Sequence record: ON286973
Source of the DNA: Escherichia phage A51.2
Length of the DNA stretch: 64,000 nucleotides
Reading direction: 5' to 3' (one strand)
Of the stretch, positions 1-54,432 are shown one piece after another. How positions within the stretch are numbered: the first letter of the stretch is position 1; the number at the start of each line of letters is the position of its first letter. Made by a program: the position numbers and the translations under genes. The notes under the pieces are model-generated. The model ran no database searches, was not told the origin of the DNA, and saw only the letters and a program-made list of their open reading frames with translations.

Positions 1-139
1 TGCCCATAGTAAGTAATAAATTTAAAACATGGTACTTAGGATCTAGTATATTCTACATAAGTTAAGTATATGTACTTAGTACCATAAGTACTAGATCTTT
101 TATTTTTTATTATTTAGTTATTTTAGTTATATTCTTTAT

Positions 140-248
140 GTGTCCGTATCACGGACAGTTAGTGTCCGTATTACGGACAGATGTGTCCGCGTGACGGACA
201 GTAGTGTCCGTATCACGGACAGTTAATAGTATCCGTTCCATGGCGAAC
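140..248. repeat. Four tandem copies of a 19-bp palindromic unit GTGTCCGTATCACGGACAG (140-158, 162-180, 183-201, 204-222; period 21-22 bp) plus a degenerate fifth half-site; putative operator/iteron array
   Basis: Read directly; each unit carries the inverted repeat GTCCGT/ACGGAC; copies are separated by only 2-3 bp. Confidence 0.8.
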
Positions 249-8445: not shown

Positions 8446-9577
8446 AGAATATCCACTTATTGAGTCCATAGATTGTCTGGCTGATCTTCTTGAACCTGAC
8501 GCTATAGTTTATTATGACTTCGATCAGGTTGCATATCAAGCTGCAGCAAGTTGTGAAAAAAGGACAATTGAGGTAACACACAAAGCCTCCGGACGTAAGA
8601 AGATGTTTAAAACACGAACAGAGTTCTGGGGGCGGCAGAAGAACACCGTTGGTGGTTGGTTAAAAGCTGAGAATACCAACCGTGAAGCTGCATGTAAAAA
8701 GGCTGGCAAGGAGTTTATTCCGTGGACACGAGAAGATTTCGATGTCTTGGATATCCAAACCCCTGATCCTGTAGAGAACTGCTTGCACACAATTAAGTGT
8801 AAAGCTAATGCAGTCCTTAATTATCTCGGTATTCCGGAAGATCGGTGCGTGGGGGTACTTGGAGGCACAGGTAATTTCAGACTAGATCTTCCCATGCCGG
8901 AAAGATATAAAGCCAACCGTAACAATACTCTTCGACCACTGCTGCTTGGAGATGCAAGACAGTATCTCCAAAAGCAGTATAATGCTCAAGTGATCAACGG
9001 TATCGAGGCTGACGACTGGTTAGCTATCCAGCAATTTGAAGGTTGGAACCACTACCAAAAAACAGGTAAGTTCAACAAGTTTATTATCTCTATTGATAAG
9101 GACCAAAGAACACTACCGGGGCTTGTGTTCGATCCCATGCGAAACGATAAGGGAGATTTTGTAAGAGAAACCCCTATGCTGATCGATAACGGTATGGGGA
9201 ACATCTTCATGAAGCCTAATGGAGAGGTTGGTGGTTACGGAATGCTGTTCTTCGGATACCAAATGCTGTGTGGTGACTCTGCTGACAACATCAAGCCGTA
9301 TCAGGGACTTATCGGTAAGGGTAAGTTCGGAGATGCCTCAGCATTCTACCTACTGTCTCAGTGCAGCACTCCAAAGGAGATGTGGATGGCTATTATTGAT
9401 CAGTACAAGAAGTGGTTCCCGAAAGGTGTTGTTAAGTATACTGACTTCAATGATATTGATCGTAGAATTTCCGTAGGTCAATGGATGAGTATAATTTTTG
9501 ACTGTTTGTATATGAAGCGAACATTCAATGATCAAACAAAACTTGTTAACGTTCTTAGAAATGTTGGAGCAATTTGA
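8438..9577 (+). CDS. 5'-3' exonuclease / flap endonuclease (T4 RNase H-like)
   Basis: YKANRNN, INGIEADDWLA and ISIDKDQRTL/LCGDSADNIKP parallel the T4 RNase H motifs YKKNRG, YEADD, SSDGDF, KGDKKDN. Confidence 0.7.
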   Translation: MSREYPLIESIDCLADLLEPDAIVYYDFDQVAYQAAASCEKRTIEVTHKASGRKKMFKTRTEFWGRQKNTVGGWLKAENTNREAACKKAGKEFIPWTREDFDVLDIQTPDPVENCLHTIKCKANAVLNYLGIPEDRCVGVLGGTGNFRLDLPMPERYKANRNNTLRPLLLGDARQYLQKQYNAQVINGIEADDWLAIQQFEGWNHYQKTGKFNKFIISIDKDQRTLPGLVFDPMRNDKGDFVRETPMLIDNGMGNIFMKPNGEVGGYGMLFFGYQMLCGDSADNIKPYQGLIGKGKFGDASAFYLLSQCSTPKEMWMAIIDQYKKWFPKGVVKYTDFNDIDRRISVGQWMSIIFDCLYMKRTFNDQTKLVNVLRNVGAI

Positions 9578-9909
9578 TGACTAAAAATTCTGTAGATAAC
9601 GCAATTATGGAAGCTGTTTTTGAGGATGATCACACAACAGGGACACTTAAAACAAAAAATACATTCGTTGTTGCCACAGGTATGTGGCGGTTGTATGAAG
9701 ATGACACCATTTCATACATCCTGTACACGGATGATTACGCAGATGACCGTGTATGGTCTGCTGTTTTAAAAGAGGATTGTGAGCTGATTGAGGGCGAGCG
9801 GTTATGCATGTTCACCAGTGTGGAAACAGATGTTAAGCTTTGCTCTCTCGTATTGTTCAAAGATAAGGCTTATGCTCCTGATGAAGGAGAGGAGGATGAG
9901 GAAGCATGA
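9574..9909 (+). CDS. Hypothetical acidic protein
   Basis: ORF with acidic C-terminal tail. Confidence 0.4.
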   Translation: MMTKNSVDNAIMEAVFEDDHTTGTLKTKNTFVVATGMWRLYEDDTISYILYTDDYADDRVWSAVLKEDCELIEGERLCMFTSVETDVKLCSLVLFKDKAYAPDEGEEDEEA

Positions 9910-40222: not shown

Positions 40223-41588
40223 TAAGTTCTTCTCTTTTCTTTTACCGAGTAATTCGGGTTTTCTGTTCTCTTCGGTTTGAAGGGGTATAGAGATACACCT
40301 GAGTGAACAGGGTGAACAACCGAACCATTAGCTATGGCATTAGCATGGCGAAGCGGACGGGTGACGAAAGAGGGGCCGGAGGACACCAGTCACTGCCATA
40401 TGATATATGGGTGATAACCTGAAGAGTCTGAATAAGTGTTTAAGTACCAGTCAGAGGAAAAGGTGAATGGTAGCCGAAGGGGGGAGGGGGGTTTCTTGTA
40501 TCTTTAATTTGTATATTATGTATACACTTGTAAACCAATCTAATCTGAATCTGTTTACCACACAAAGCGGATAGAGACAAATATTGCCTATTAAACTTGA
40601 ATTATTTATAGAAAATACCACAACACCCCTTAAGTCTTTGATTTTACACACAAATCCTACAGATATTCAACCTCCATATTTAACATACTTGTAACATATT
40701 CCATACTCTACCTGCCTGATCAATTTCCCCAACTACATTCTCATATTTCCCCTGTCTGTACTACCCTGCCCCACCGGGAGTCCCGTCATATCTGGCTTTC
40801 CAGCAAATATCACACCCACAAATATCATGCCTGAAGAGGGTTTCATCCCATAATACCTGCCTTGCCTGAAGAGCGCTTCATACACCACGTAAATTTTTTA
40901 ATTGACCTCCCCTGCCCCGCCGGAGAGGTTGGCTTTTCCCACACAGACCTGGAGAGTCAGCCAGAAATATCTGAATAGGCCCAGTTCTACCACGATTTTG
41001 ACCTGACCTACAGGAGCGCTGCCAGGCGGACGAAATGGGAATACTTCTCATTCTTATAACAATTCTCAAATATCGAGGCAGTGAGGCAAATTAATAGGCC
41101 AGGCCGTTCACACAGTGGCACAACATTTGCAACCTATCTTGTGGGGTGAATGAGAATACCTATCATTGTGAGAACCATTATCATTACGGGCAATTTAACA
41201 TAATACCCATTATGCGCACCACTGGCGATCCATACAGGGATTGATAACACGAGTTACAGTTTACGCATATAACAATCATATTTCTTACTATTTGTGTGGG
41301 ATATAGTTAGCAGCCGATAGATTAGATATTGACCTGTGGACTTCCAACCGTCTAGACGTCTAAGCGCCCACACAACAAGGCTTATACATACATTACTGAA
41401 TGTAAACAGGGCCGCAAAAATGCTACCATACCAGTTTGTAAATTTTTCATGCAGCACTTGACAAAGAGGAGGAAAACTTGTCTGACACAATGTCACACAA
41501 TATGACACAATAACGGCTGTTACCATTCCATATCTCACTGTTTACGCATAGACTGTTTACGCCTGGATAGTTTACACAGATATGATAA

Positions 41589-52947: not shown

Positions 52948-53623
52948 AAATTTATCCTCTTTACTGGTTAGTGCGGTGTTGTTCACCTTGTAGGGTAATA
53001 ATACCATGATTAACCTTGTTGTCAACGACTATTTTAAATTATTTTTATGATAGAATCCACCTGCCGCCGCCCTGCCAGGTTAACCATCATTTTTTCGTAC
53101 TCTTCTTTATGTTCCAACGCTCCCGCCATGGCCTTTTCAACCAGGGCGATAGCCTCAGCGTCATTAATAGCTACATTTTCCAGGCTGGCCCCGCCAGGTT
53201 GCAGCGGTTAGCGCATCAGGTTAGAAAAATTTTTTGAAAAGTGTTGACAGCGGCCCCGCCAGGTGGCACAATATACCTATCGAAAGGACGGCAGGCACCG
53301 GTGACGGGGGAGACAACCACCGGGGATGGGCGCTGCATAAAATGAGAACGGTTATCATTATCATTTAAAAATTTATGCAAAAAATCCTTGCTTTCTTTGT
53401 CCTGTGTGATACTATAATAACAAGCCGGGGCAACAGGGGCCGGGAGACAATCACCGGGCCTGCCCGTTATTCTGCAAACGAGAATGATTATCATTCAAAA
53501 TTCTAAATGAGAACTCCTCGCATTTAATAAATTTAATTAGCACGCTAATTACCCTCCGTAACAATTTCCTATAAAACAGTATCCCATAAAATATTCCCGT
53601 ATAGAAATTTTAAAAATCCATTT

Positions 53624-53793
53624 CTGAAAACGAAAAATCGATTTCGTCCCCAAAAATTTTAGGCCAAGAGCCGGAGCGATTTCCAGAAAATCCGATTCAG
53701 AAAACGAAAAACAGATCGAGTACTGAGAAATTTATCGAGAAAAATTTTCAGAAAATTCAATCTTTGAAACGAAAAACAGATCGAGTACCTGGA
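53624..53793. repeat. Three tandem repeat units of about 70 bp, each containing GAAAACGAAAAA(C/T)(A/C)GAT ... (starts near 53624, 53696, 53764)
   Basis: Read directly; lies in an ORF-free island. Confidence 0.65.
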
Positions 53794-54099
53794 AAGCTGC
53801 ACCGCAACTTCAAGATAGTGGTTGGATTATTGCTATAAAAGGTCAAGGGTAAGTGGAGGAAGTTCTAGTAGCGAGATGTAAGCATGTGCGGGAAATCTAT
53901 AATGGTGGTCTGGAATATGGTGCAAACGGTAGGATGAGTGATTCAGCTTGTCGCGCCTACTCTGAAAAATCCATTTTAGTTTTCGATCCATTTTCTGATT
54001 TTCTAAGGATTTTAAAATATCCTGGCAGGTAAAATATCAAAAGGAGGAAATCCATTTTAGAAATCCTCCTGATCTCTGGCAACCTGATAACTTAAAATA

Positions 54100-54432
54100 T
54101 CAGGCTCCCAGTGTGTTCTTTCCTTTGTACAACCTTAAGGGTATAGTTTTTGTAACAGTCCATCTCCCCAGCCCTTCCCAGTTCCAGTTGTAGGCATGGT
54201 ACCCGGTTACGCATGCACTGCTAGAGTGGTCATAGGCATAAGAGAACGCTATACGCACCAAATGGAACCAGTCTTTCCACGGTTGTGGTCCGTAAGCTTT
54301 TCTCCAACACCGACACAAACTAAATGTCTCAAGAATAGGCAGGATAACAAATCCATACACCGCCACCAGAATAGCCAGCGCAATGATTGTCAGGAATACA
54401 TACCCTGCAGTTGAAACGATGATCTCTGTCAT
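54100..54432 (-). CDS. Membrane protein
   Basis: N-terminal transmembrane segment IVSTAGYVFLTIIALAILVAVYGFVILPIL. Confidence 0.4.
   Translation of the reverse strand: MTEIIVSTAGYVFLTIIALAILVAVYGFVILPILETFSLCRCWRKAYGPQPWKDWFHLVRIAFSYAYDHSSSACVTGYHAYNWNWEGLGRWTVTKTIPLRLYKGKNTLGA

What the first reader, a model, noticed from the sequence alone, without database searches (positions are those of the whole stretch)
53250..54100. Second non-coding island with about 70-bp tandem repeats and conserved GAGACAA(C/T)CACCGGG elements
An ORF-free island inside the minus-strand block carries three tandem units of about 70 bp (GAAAACGAAAAACAGATCGAGTAC cores at about 53640, 53710 and 53778), duplicated (A)AATCCATTTTAG motifs and a palindrome AGGAGGA ... 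TCCTCCT at 54040-54075. Upstream, two related units at 53266-53370 and 53420-53510 contain GGGAGACAA(C/T)CACCGGG and GAGAA(C/T)G(G/A)TTATCATT. The pattern is iteron-like, so this is a candidate origin or regulatory region.
Basis: seen in the sequence. Interest (0 to 1): 0.6.

Follow-up and report, generated by a model that had tools for sequence, protein, structure and literature searches.

The report
Phage non-coding island with Fur boxes
This gene-free stretch of an rV5-like coliphage is a strongly conserved control region whose "GAGAAYGRTTATCATT" elements look like binding sites for the host iron sensor Fur, and the same boxes form the unexplained repeats of phage T5's "injection stop" region, so large virulent phages may read or exploit the host's iron state.

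Summary
The window is an rV5-like coliphage (Vequintavirus). The island (about 53212-54099) is non-coding and is conserved across at least eight phage groups in two subfamilies.

- **Upstream units.** The two units are paralogous modules. Each has a rightward sigma-70-type promoter, a GC-rich leader of about 60 nt (the GGGAGACAAYCACCGGG element) and 19-bp palindromes (the GAGAAYGRTTATCATT element).
- **The palindromes look like Fur operators.** They match the Fur consensus at 14-16 of 19 positions. The consensus palindrome sits upstream of iron-uptake genes in many bacteria. A matrix built only from phage boxes picks out the Fur-regulated ent-fep intergenic regions of E. coli.
- **The 70-bp repeats.** They are three old, ordered units, present in eight phage groups.
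- **The AGGAGGA...TCCTCCT palindrome.** It is the terminator of the upstream leftward operon.
- **Link to T5.** The same boxes form phage T5's "direct repeat C / palindromes E-I" array, and other repeat classes follow in the same order.

I found no specific evidence for a replication origin. My best reading is a Fur-gated non-coding transcription and control region. Fur binding, transcription and function are all untested.

The parts
53034..53179 (-). Context, left border: 5'-truncated remnant of a small early gene.
   Evidence: The 31-aa ORF matches phrog_21957 positions 26-48 of 56. Relatives carry about 100 more nt with a ribosome-binding site and ATG at window 53179/53180.
53225..53272 (+). 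Promoter P1: an A5T6 tract resembling an UP element (53225-53240), then TTGACA (53244), 17 nt, CACAAT (53267).
   Evidence: Promoter scan scores 10 of 12. The stretch is almost invariant in nine Vequintavirus genomes.
53279..53340 (+). Leader 1, GC-rich, containing GGGAGACAACCACCGGG (53308-53324).
   Evidence: Paralogue of leader 2. 98.5% mean identity among relatives.
53341..53365 (.). Fur-like box 1: two overlapping 19-mers at 53341 and 53347. GAGAACGGTTATCATTATC matches the Fur consensus at 16 of 19.
   Evidence: 23.7 bits with a matrix built from other genera. By reading, its centre lies about 72 nt upstream of the predicted P2 start.
53388..53415 (+). Promoter P2: TTGCTT, 16 nt, TG-A-TACTAT (extended -10).
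   Evidence: Read from the sequence. The same promoter, mostly with an extended -10, sits at the same place in ten other phage groups.
53422..53473 (+). Leader 2, containing GGGAGACAATCACCGGG (53442-53458). This is the segment conserved in other genera.
   Evidence: blastn hits to Phapecoctavirus, Mydovirus, Seunavirus, Certrevirus and others. Invariant ACAA-CACC and TGC columns. Support for an RNA helix is weak.
53474..53498 (.). Fur-like box 2: palindrome 53477-53495. The 19-mers at 53474 and 53480 match the Fur consensus at 14 and 15 of 19, and the core AATGATTATCATT is exact.
   Evidence: 25.0 bits.
53506..53524 (.). Fur-like box 3, weaker, 29 bp after box 2.
   Evidence: 15.8 bits. The 29-bp spacing of boxes recurs in other genera.
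53605..53656 (.). Repeat unit 1, degenerate: ...AAATCCATTTCTGAAAACGAAAAATCGATTTCGTCC.
53679..53730 (.). Repeat unit 2: ...AAATCCGATTCAGAAAACGAAAAACAGATCGAGTAC.
   Evidence: Three ordered units with the same 3' core occur in eight phage groups.
53744..53795 (.). Repeat unit 3: ...TTTGAAACGAAAAACAGATCGAGTACC.
53796..53965 (.). Fast-evolving spacer. ORFs annotated here in some records are not conserved.
   Evidence: 72% mean identity, 119 of 170 columns variable, indels of 1-2 nt.
53966..54035 (.). Conserved block of short repeats: AAATCCATTTT-type repeats, and two of the three AAAATATC copies (54014, 54031). The third copy is at 54094, inside the hairpin at 54076-54111.
   Evidence: 91.6% identity. 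Counterparts occur at the same end of the island in other genera.
54032..54071 (-). Intrinsic terminator of the upstream leftward operon: stem AGGAGGA/TCCTCCT followed by UUUUGAUAUUUU.
   Evidence: Fold of -15.1 kcal/mol, z-score -2.5. Two relatives change one position in each arm, read here as compensatory and not checked pair by pair. A terminator is annotated at the matching place in phAPEC8.
54076..54111 (.). Second hairpin, spanning the stop codon of the 110-aa gene. On the + strand it may end rightward transcripts.
   Evidence: -21.1 kcal/mol, z-score -4.2 on the minus strand; -13.4 kcal/mol on the plus strand, followed by a T-rich run.
41034..41185 (.). Linked feature outside the finding: three more Fur-like boxes in the first non-coding island (41034, 41149, 41167).
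   Evidence: 21.2, 19.0 and 16.2 bits. No other site in the 64-kb window scores above 12.3 bits.

Best explanation
The island is a conserved, non-coding control region that recruits the host iron regulator Fur.

**Layout.**
- Two paralogous host-type promoters, P1 and P2, fire rightwards, against the leftward early genes.
- Each is followed by a GC-rich leader of about 60 nt and then by 19-bp palindromes that look like Fur operators.
- Downstream lie three old, ordered units of about 70 bp, a fast-evolving spacer, and a block of short repeats.
- The region ends at the terminator that closes the upstream leftward operon. A leftward promoter at 53025-52998 restarts early transcription, so the island is insulated from its neighbours.

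**Proposed mechanism (inferred).** Iron-loaded Fur binds the box arrays. These lie about 65 nt downstream of one rightward start. They lie about 62-72 nt upstream of the next start, measured directly in other genera and read from the sequence for P2 here. Binding would set how much non-coding rightward transcription runs through the repeat array, tying this locus to the host's iron state.

**Link to T5.** The same box array, followed by the same order of repeat classes, makes up repeat region 3 of the phage T5 terminal repeat (the "injection stop" region). I therefore treat the two as one class of cis-element.

**Shown versus inferred.**
- Shown here: the sequence motifs, their conservation, their identity with bacterial Fur operators, and the shared layout with T5.
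- Not shown: Fur binding to the phage DNA, rightward transcription, the direction of any Fur effect, and what the repeat array does.
For: **Match to the Fur consensus.**
- Boxes match GATAATGATWATCATTATC at 14-16 of 19. Overlapping matches are 6 bp apart, the spacing reported for E. coli Fur site clusters (PMC2189734).

**The motif is specific to the two islands.**
- A matrix built from boxes of other genera gives six sites of 15.8-25 bits in the window, all in the two non-coding islands.
- Random sequence gives a mean maximum of 11.3 bits per 64 kb.

**The motif behaves as a Fur operator in bacteria.**
- The consensus palindrome AATGAGAATNATTCTCATT occurs at least 120 times in bacterial genomes, about 100 of 121 matches outside long ORFs.
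- 17 of 30 adjacent genes tested encode metal-transport proteins.
- These are five TonB-dependent receptors, five Fe(III)-type binding proteins, three ZnuA-type proteins, FTR1, an Fe2+ transport protein, a siderophore-type binding protein and an ABC ATPase.
- The top four or five matrix hits in the 22-kb E. coli ent-fep cluster all fall in the fepA-fes, fepD-entS and fepB-entC intergenic regions.

**The boxes look like protein sites, not RNA hairpins.**
- 28 of 36 departures from the palindrome break its symmetry.

**No phage-encoded candidate binder was found.**
- No Fur homologue in these phages.
- The T5 A2 DNA-binding protein has homologues only in T5-like phages.

**Promoters and box position.**
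- Promoters are conserved across genera.
- In four genera the promoter-proximal box is centred at about -62 or -63 of an extended -10 promoter.

**Constraint and non-coding status.** 98% identity in the units against 65-86% in the flanks; non-coding status.

**T5.** AY587007 9473-9636 scores 24-31 bits with the same matrix, and the order of motif classes is shared.
Against: - No experiment shows Fur binding, or any transcript, from this locus.
- The boxes do not overlap the -35 or -10 of the strong promoters, which is where classical Fur repression acts.
- In the window itself no clear promoter follows boxes 2 and 3 (reading). The -62 arrangement is seen in other genera, not here.
- Some genera have only one box, others five, so dosage is not fixed.
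- The phage consensus half-site (TGAGAAT) differs at one position from the enterobacterial consensus (TGATAAT).
- The exact palindrome was not seen in an enterobacterial genome among the listed hits.
- Three of the 30 neighbouring genes are ZnuA-type, so another regulator of the Fur family cannot be excluded.
Confidence: 0.45

Rival explanations
1. It is a transcription-activated or iteron-type replication origin. Rightward transcripts from the tandem promoters open or prime an AT-rich region, and the three 70-bp units and short phased repeats bind an initiator. Fur would then be an accessory host factor.
For: - Tandem promoters face an AT-richer segment. 53480-53620 is among the ten least stable 100-bp windows.
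- Several classes of direct repeats are conserved across genera.
- The region is insulated by a terminator and a restart promoter.
- The origin of rV5 is unknown, and skew analysis only tracked transcription (PMC3606486).
- From general knowledge, the primary origin of T7 and oriF/oriG of T4 pair promoters with an unwinding region.
Against: - Unit spacing is 63-78 bp and variable, so the units are not in helical register.
- There is no DnaA box.
- No identifiable initiator gene lies next to the island.
- The island is not the least stable site. The first island and the window start are less stable and also full of repeats.
- The T5 counterpart lies in the terminal repeat, whereas T5 origins were mapped near the genome centre (10.1101/866236).
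Confidence: 0.2
2. The island encodes functional non-coding RNA. This could be one or two small RNAs from P1 and P2 with a 5' stem-loop, or a long repeat-bearing RNA acting as a regulator or an anti-defence decoy. The boxes would then act as RNA hairpins.
For: - Promoters are conserved.
- A 6-8-bp helix between the 5' end of the leader and CCCGYYAT shows A-U to G-C changes. At columns 8/54 the counts are 7 A-U, 5 G-C and 2 G-U.
- Minimum-energy folds of most of the seventeen sequences place an outer helix around the GAGACAAWCACC segment.
- A relative, phiTE, makes a repeat RNA that blocks ToxN (PMC3475682).
Against: - Covariation is weak: 42 of 500 shuffles reach the observed score, and the inner helix is only 56% paired.
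- There is no Rfam match at E-value up to 10.
- Box variation breaks the hairpins in 28 of 36 cases.
- The inverted repeats inside the 70-bp units differ from unit to unit and between genera (reading).
- No intrinsic terminator follows the leaders.
- The phiTE pseudo-ToxI locus lies elsewhere, next to tRNA genes and the terminase gene, and is unrelated in sequence.
Confidence: 0.15
3. The boxes are operators for a phage-encoded protein or another host regulator, and the likeness to Fur boxes is coincidence or mimicry.
For: - The phage consensus is a palindrome with outer half-sites AATGAGAA. Its centre is shifted 3 bp from each of the two overlapping best matches to the 19-bp Fur consensus.
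- Many small early proteins of unknown function are encoded nearby.
- Three ZnuA-type genes among the bacterial neighbours hint at other Fur-family regulators.
Against: - The same 19-mer sits upstream of iron-uptake genes in many bacterial phyla.
- The phage-derived matrix finds the E. coli Fur-regulated regions.
- The boxes are shared by phage groups that share no identified DNA-binding protein. A2 homologues occur only in T5-like phages, and none of these phages encodes a Fur homologue.
Confidence: 0.12
4. The boxes are a Fur sponge. Replicating phage DNA titrates Fur and de-represses host iron uptake and Fur-repressed genes to the phage's benefit.
For: - There are six boxes per genome here and up to five in one array elsewhere.
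- From general knowledge, Fur boxes on multicopy plasmids de-repress Fur-controlled reporters, which is the basis of the Fur titration assay.
Against: - Several genera keep a single box.
- The box position relative to a promoter is fixed at -62 or -63 in four genera, which points to local control.
- From general knowledge, T5 degrades host DNA soon after first-step transfer, so de-repressing host genes would achieve little there.
Confidence: 0.06
5. It is only a cluster of promoters and terminators plus decayed gene remnants, with no function that depends on the repeats.
For: - A terminator and promoters are present.
- One neighbouring gene is truncated.
- The middle of the island evolves fast.
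Against: - The units are 98% identical where the flanks are 65-86%.
- Motif content and order are kept across at least eight phage groups in two subfamilies and in T5-like phages.
Confidence: 0.02

Closest known systems
Repeat region 3 of the phage T5 left terminal repeat (AY587007 9194-10409): the "injection stop signal" region with direct repeats C, D and A and palindromes E-I.
   Same: - T5 direct repeat C copies 1-4 and palindromes E-I (9473-9636) are the same boxes, scoring 24.6, 14.6, 31.3 and 28.5 bits with the matrix built from Vequintavirinae and Stephanstirmvirinae.
- The order of motif classes is shared: box array, then AAATCCGA-type repeats with an A5T4 tract (A5T5 in T5), then TTGAGATA repeats. 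The TTGAGATA class is seen in other genera of the group, not in this window.
- Both regions are untranslated and better conserved than the neighbouring genes (10.1101/866236).
   Different: - The T5 region lies at the inner end of a fixed terminal repeat next to a nick, and carries paired DnaA boxes in large inverted repeats. The island here has no DnaA box.
- The island lies inside an early gene block. Its relatives PVP-SE1 and phiTE are circularly permuted (PMC3475682), so a role in stopping DNA entry is not obvious.
- The GATCGAG core of the 70-bp units is absent from T5.
- The T5 repeats have not been linked to Fur in the papers I could search.
Fur operators of enterobacteria: the 19-bp consensus GATAATGATAATCATTATC, for example in the fepA-fes, fepD-entS and fepB-entC regions.
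   Same: - 14-16 of 19 matches to the consensus, with the exact core AATGATTATCATT in box 2.
- Overlapping sites 6 bp apart (PMC2189734).
- By my alignment of the sequences, the fepA-fes site GCAAATGCAAATAGTTATCAAT matches the phage GCAAATGAGAATGATTATCATT at 17 of 22.
   Different: - The boxes are not placed over the -35 or -10 of a promoter for an iron gene. They sit in a non-coding phage region, downstream of one promoter and about 62-72 nt upstream of the next.
- Arrays have a regular 29-bp period.
Fur boxes on temperate phages, upstream of cargo genes such as sitABCD on lambdoid coliphages.
   Same: A phage-borne site that places a phage promoter under the host Fur regulon (PMC6969025).
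   Different: There the box controls a host-type iron or manganese transporter carried by a prophage. Here the phages are virulent, no iron gene is nearby, and the boxes form arrays in a non-coding region.
Promoter-dependent and iteron-type phage origins: the T7 primary origin, T4 oriF/oriG, lambda ori (from general knowledge).
   Same: Tandem promoters facing an AT-richer, repeat-bearing segment.
   Different: No initiator gene, no repeats in helical register, no DnaA boxes, and not the least stable duplex in the window.
The pseudo-ToxI repeat RNA of the related phage phiTE.
   Same: A repeat-bearing non-coding locus in a phage of the same subfamily (PMC3475682).
   Different: It lies at a different locus (JQ015307 106714-106772, beside tRNA genes and the terminase gene), has 36-nt repeats, and shows no sequence similarity to this island. 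There is no ToxI match in Rfam here.

Membership tests
Fur operator (Fur box) | Match to the 19-bp consensus GATAATGATWATCATTATC, or to the 7-1-7 form TGATAATnATTATCA. | tested here: met
   16 of 19 at 53344, 14 of 19 at 53474, 15 of 19 at 53480, and 12 of 14 for the 7-1-7 form at 53479. Shuffles give a mean of 2.6 sites at 14 or more of 19 against 10 observed.
Fur operator (Fur box) | Sites occur as overlapping clusters offset by 3 or 6 bp. | tested here: met
   Pairs at 53341/53347 and 53474/53480 are offset by 6 bp. The rule is from PMC2189734.
Fur operator (Fur box) | The same sequence lies upstream of iron-acquisition genes in bacteria. | tested here: met
   The consensus palindrome occurs at least 120 times, about 100 of 121 matches outside long ORFs. 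17 of 30 adjacent genes encode metal-uptake proteins.
Fur operator (Fur box) | The motif model recognises experimentally known E. coli Fur-regulated regions. | tested here: met
   The top four or five hits of the phage-derived matrix in the 22-kb ent-fep locus all fall in the fepA-fes, fepD-entS and fepB-entC intergenic regions, which make up 3.3% of the locus.
Fur operator (Fur box) | The site overlaps the -35 or -10 of the promoter it represses. | tested here: not met
   Boxes lie about +65 from P1 and P2, and about -62 to -72 from the next rightward promoter (reading).
Fur operator (Fur box) | Metal-dependent binding by the Fur protein. | not testable with these tools
   Needs a gel shift, footprint, titration assay or ChIP.
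T5-type terminal-repeat region 3 ("iss" region) | An array of direct repeat C / palindrome E-I boxes. | tested here: met
   The same matrix scores 24-31 bits on T5 9473, 9577 and 9612, and 16-25 bits on the window boxes.
T5-type terminal-repeat region 3 ("iss" region) | Downstream repeats of direct repeat D type (GTGCAAATCCGAC) and direct repeat A type (TTGAGATAA), in that order. | tested here: inconclusive
   AAATCCGA/AAATCCATT-type repeats follow the boxes in the window. TTGAGATA repeats follow them in six related groups but not in the window.
T5-type terminal-repeat region 3 ("iss" region) | Paired DnaA boxes in the IRD'/IRC' inverted repeats. | tested here: not met
   No TTWTNCACA between 40650 and 64000.
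T5-type terminal-repeat region 3 ("iss" region) | Position at the inner end of a long terminal repeat, next to the first-step-transfer stop and a nick. | not testable with these tools
   The ends of this genome are unknown. Its relatives PVP-SE1 and phiTE are reported as circularly permuted (PMC3475682).
Iteron-type or promoter-dependent replication origin | Three or more direct repeats at a regular, helically phased spacing. | tested here: not met
   Spacings are 74/65 in the window and 63-78 elsewhere, varying between genera.
Iteron-type or promoter-dependent replication origin | An adjacent DNA-unwinding element that is the local minimum of duplex stability. | tested here: inconclusive
   53522 ranks sixth among 100-bp windows. 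The first island and the window start are less stable.
Iteron-type or promoter-dependent replication origin | An initiator gene next to the origin, or the origin inside it. | tested here: not met
   All seven flanking genes match PHROG families of unknown function.
Iteron-type or promoter-dependent replication origin | Replication starts here. | not testable with these tools
   Needs marker-frequency analysis or 2D gels.
tRNA or tRNA remnant | A cloverleaf detectable by a tRNA finder. | tested here: not met
   ARAGORN finds none in the window or in five related loci. The tRNA-Met annotated over the box in OY978796 is not reproduced.
Described structured RNA family, or type III antitoxin (ToxI-like) repeats | A match to an Rfam model, or conserved base pairs with covariation. 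| tested here: inconclusive
   No Rfam match. The outer helix is 79% paired with two covarying pairs, but 42 of 500 shuffles reach the score.

The most novel reading that the evidence does not exclude
Host Fur is an unrecognised host factor for several families of large virulent enterobacterial phages (rV5-like, phAPEC8-like and T5-like). They share an old cis-module of Fur-operator arrays followed by ordered repeats. In T5 this module is the core of the long-unexplained "injection stop" repeat region. Fur occupancy would then act as an iron-dependent checkpoint on an early step of infection, such as DNA entry or hold, non-coding transcription, or the start of replication.
Probability: 0.3. 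Interest if true: 0.85.

Novelty: new variant of a known kind. Interest (0 to 1): 0.66.

Why it matters
- **A testable identity for old T5 repeats.** Fur boxes are textbook elements and the T5 repeat region has been known for decades. Its repeats have been called impossible to interpret (10.1101/866236). Reading them as Fur operators gives a direct hypothesis: does Fur bind, and does a fur mutant or iron limitation change first-step transfer in T5 or early development in rV5-like phages?
- **Practical relevance.** rV5-like and phAPEC8-like phages have the broadest host ranges among gut coliphages in one survey (PMC6969025) and are candidates for therapy. They act in iron-poor environments, so an iron-sensing control region could affect how well they work there.
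- **Annotation.** The hypothetical ORFs placed in this region in many GenBank records are probably spurious.

Tried and rejected
- **tRNA remnant.** One record annotates tRNA-Met over the box, but ARAGORN finds nothing in the window or in five loci. The annotation looks shifted.
- **Known RNA family.** No Rfam match at gathering score, or at E-value up to 10.
- **ToxI mimic as in phiTE.** That locus is elsewhere and unrelated in sequence.
- **Protein-coding ORFs** (92 aa on the minus strand at 53216-53494; 59 aa on the plus strand at 53853-54032).
  - Annotations are inconsistent between records.
  - Indels are not multiples of three.
- **RNA structure of the leader.** Suggestive by eye and in single-sequence folds, but not significant in the pair count. 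A first RNAalifold attempt gave no consensus.
- **Host origin of the unit.** No blastn match in 5,426 E. coli genomes.
- **Phage-encoded Fur or A2-like binder.** None found.
- **Small plus-strand ORF upstream of the unit in other genera** (phrog_4653 and phrog_19316). Function is unknown and it is absent from the window.
- **DnaA boxes.** None in the island.
- **GATC clustering.** By my count there are four GATC in about 900 bp, close to expectation.
- **Units as sigma-70 promoters.** I saw no acceptable -35/-10 pair in them by reading.
- **Unwinding element.** Not distinctive.
- **Literature.** No paper in the searchable library links Fur to rV5-like or T5-like phage non-coding regions.
Full report
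**1. What the window is.** The 1.2 kb around the finding is 99.8% identical to Escherichia phage phiWec191 and 88-96% identical to more than 100 rV5-like phages of the genus Vequintavirus. The island lies inside a block of small leftward early genes. All flanking genes tested match PHROG families of unknown function.

**2.
- The repeat finder returns three copies of a 52-nt unit at 53605, 53679 and 53744, at 65%, 100% and 79% identity to the reference copy, spaced 74 and 65 nt apart.
- It also returns AAATCCATTTTAG at 53967 and 54048, the 17-nt GGGAGACAAYCACCGGG pair, and the 33-nt GAGAA... pair.
- Tandem Repeats Finder misses the 70-bp units because they are too divergent.
- The two upstream units align at 58% identity, with score 73 against 19.5 +/- 8.5 for shuffles.

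**3. The island is non-coding and under strong constraint.**
- GenBank records disagree on which ORFs lie here, on which strand, and how long they are.
- In an alignment of nine Vequintavirus genomes the two units are 98% identical on average. The flanking coding sequence is 65-86% identical.
- The segment 53796-53965 is only 72% identical and carries 1-2-nt indels.
- Between genera the leader varies in length by 2, 3, 5 or 7 nt.
- Compared with its relatives the window lacks about 100 nt at 53179/53180. That stretch holds the ribosome-binding site and start codon of a small leftward gene, so 53034-53179 is a truncated remnant.

**4. The island is conserved far beyond the genus.**
- blastn finds unit 2 in Phapecoctavirus (Stephanstirmvirinae) and in Mydovirus, Seunavirus, Certrevirus, Henunavirus and a Serratia phage (Vequintavirinae), nearly always where nothing is annotated.
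- In each case a gene-poor island of 0.8-1.2 kb sits in a leftward gene block.
- Aligned on the box, all show the same module:
  - a rightward sigma-70-type promoter, mostly with an extended -10;
  - a leader of about 60 nt with the invariant ACAA-CACC;
  - the sequence YATTCTGCAAAT;
  - a 19-bp palindrome.

**5. The palindromes look like Fur operators.** The consensus across genera is AATGAGAATnATTCTCATT. It is present in one to five copies, often exactly 29 bp apart.
- *Consensus match.* In the window the boxes match the E. coli Fur consensus GATAATGATWATCATTATC at 16, 14 and 15 of 19. Matches overlap at a 6-bp offset, as described for E. coli Fur site clusters (PMC2189734).
- *Specificity in the window.*
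  - A matrix built only from other genera scores six sites in the window at 15.8-25 bits.
  - Three are here (53341, 53477, 53506) and three in the first non-coding island (41034, 41149, 41167).
  - The next-best site scores 12.3 bits. Random sequence gives a mean maximum of 11.3 bits.
- *Bacterial copies.*
  - About 100 of 121 matches lie outside long ORFs, mostly within 150 bp of a gene start.
  - Of the 30 adjacent genes I annotated, 17 encode metal-uptake proteins.
  - These are five TonB-dependent receptors, five Fe(III)-type binding proteins and three ZnuA-type proteins.
  - The rest are FTR1, an Fe2+ transport protein, a siderophore-type binding protein and an ABC ATPase.
- *Known E. 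coli sites.* In the 22-kb E. coli ent-fep cluster the top hits of the phage-derived matrix all fall in the three Fur-regulated divergent promoter regions, which are 3.3% of the locus.
- *DNA site rather than RNA hairpin.* 28 of 36 departures from the palindrome break its symmetry. The one true two-sided change moves the site towards GATAAT.
- *No phage-encoded candidate.* None of these phages encodes a Fur homologue.
- *Not host-derived.* The unit has no counterpart in E. coli genomes.

**6. Where the boxes sit.**
- In the window, box 1 lies about +65 from P1 and about -72 from P2. Boxes 2 and 3 lie about +55 to +95 from P2 (reading).
- In Seunavirus (two species groups), Mydovirus and Henunavirus the last box is centred at -62 or -63 of a further extended -10 promoter that fires into the three 70-bp units.
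- In an unrelated viral contig, three perfect boxes 30 bp apart precede a consensus promoter, with the last centred at about -66.
- This is not the classical position for Fur repression. It fits upstream modulation or a roadblock, which is my inference.

**7. The 70-bp units.**
- Anchored on their 3' core, 24 units from eight phage groups align without gaps over about 36 nt.
- The consensus is ...AATACGWTYTYGAWWWYGAAAAAYCGATCGAGWACC, usually preceded by AAAAAATTTTTT.
- Unit-specific features are kept across genera, so the triplication predates the genera.
- Spacing varies from 63 to 78 bp.
- Their internal inverted repeats differ from unit to unit.
- I found no sigma-70 promoter in them and cannot say what binds them.

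**8. The right end.**
- AGGAGGA...TCCTCCT followed by UUUUGAUAUUUU on the minus strand is an intrinsic terminator for the upstream leftward operon (-15.1 kcal/mol). A second hairpin spans the stop codon (-21.1 kcal/mol, z-score -4.2).
- A leftward promoter at 53025-52998 scores 11 of 12 and restarts transcription.
- The island is therefore insulated from leftward transcription.

**9. The link to T5.**
- Scanning viral contigs for the consensus palindrome gave at least 120 stretches, several from contigs of 106-121 kb.
- These contigs are T5-like phages, and the site lies near 9 kb, in the left terminal repeat.
- In T5 itself (AY587007) the matrix scores 24.6, 14.6, 31.3 and 28.5 bits at 9473, 9508, 9577 and 9612. 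These are the annotated "direct repeat C" copies and palindromes E-I of repeat region 3.
- The motif order is shared:
  - T5: boxes, then AAATCCGAC repeats with an A5T5 tract, then TTGAGATAA repeats.
  - Islands of Vequintavirinae and Stephanstirmvirinae: boxes, then AAATCC/AAATAC-type repeats with A5T4, then TTGAGATA repeats.
- In T5 this region is the candidate injection stop signal, and its repeats are described as impossible to interpret. Fur is not mentioned (10.1101/866236).
- The paired DnaA boxes of T5 are absent here.
- T5 A2 homologues are confined to T5-like phages.

**10. Origin or not.**
- There are no DnaA boxes, no identifiable initiator gene, no repeats in helical register, and no outstanding unwinding element.
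- The rV5 paper could not place an origin.
- The origin reading is not excluded, but nothing specific supports it.

**11. RNA or not.**
- No Rfam family matches and no tRNA is found.
- A helix between the 5' end of the leader and CCCGYYAT shows some A-U to G-C exchange, but the shuffle control is not convincing at 42 of 500.

**12. Verdict.**
- The finding is real.
- The "iteron-like regulatory region" reading is partly right.
- The new content is that the conserved elements match host Fur operators and that the island is a counterpart of T5 repeat region 3.
- Fur binding, transcription and function remain to be tested.

Noticed in passing
window 53034-53179 (-): A small early gene is 5'-truncated. 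The 31-aa ORF matches phrog_21957 positions 26-48 of 56. Relatives carry about 100 more nt, with a ribosome-binding site and ATG, at window 53179/53180.
   Followed up: partly
window 40890-41190 (first non-coding island): Three more Fur-like boxes (41034, 41149, 41167; 16-21 bits). A P1-like element, AAATTTTTTAATTGACC...CCCCGCC, lies at about 40893. The two islands share building blocks.
   Followed up: partly
L003 2420-2573 (OY978796.1 10891-11044): tRNA-Ile and tRNA-Met are annotated over the leader and box region of a Klebsiella phage, and most CDS in that record are flagged as pseudogenes. ARAGORN finds no tRNA there, so the annotation looks shifted.
   Followed up: yes
GenBank MG0656xx records: Sixteen records named "Campylobacter phage" are 94-99.8% identical to this coliphage island. 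The host label looks doubtful.
   Followed up: no
L222 1810-1940 (IMGVR_UViG_3300042896_000600): Three perfect boxes exactly 30 bp apart lie just upstream of a consensus TTGACA-17-TATAAT promoter in an unidentified 14-kb viral contig. A second promoter there is preceded by TTGTAAAG, as in Vequintavirinae.
   Followed up: partly
L170 144-1470 (IMGVR_UViG_3300007965_000002, 89.9 kb): Two perfect boxes and one imperfect box in a contig with no close GenBank relative. This suggests further phage groups carry the element.
   Followed up: no
L195 1570-1690 (Escherichia phage HdH2, T5-like): A GC-rich hairpin (GGGGCGC...GTGCCCC) followed by AATTCCCA and a perfect box. This mirrors the ...GTGCCCGTTATTCTGCA-box arrangement of the rV5-like leader. 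T5 itself has a terminator hairpin (palindrome C) at the matching place.
   Followed up: partly
L003 2073-2258, L012 1580-1762, L016 1598-1789, L011 1575-1841, L014 1525-1791: Other genera carry a small rightward gene (phrog_4653 or phrog_19316, function unknown) with its own promoter just upstream of the unit. The window has unit 1 at that place instead.
   Followed up: partly
window 53187-53203, 53252-53268, 53068-53084: The GC-rich motif GGCCCCGCCAGG recurs, once inside the spacer of promoter P1. CTGGCCCCGCCAG at 53185 can form a 5-bp hairpin with a 3-nt loop. Its meaning is unknown.
   Followed up: no
window 138-223: A tandem repeat of 21 bp x 4 (GTGTCCGTATCACGGACAGTA) in the least stable duplex region of the window.
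   Followed up: no
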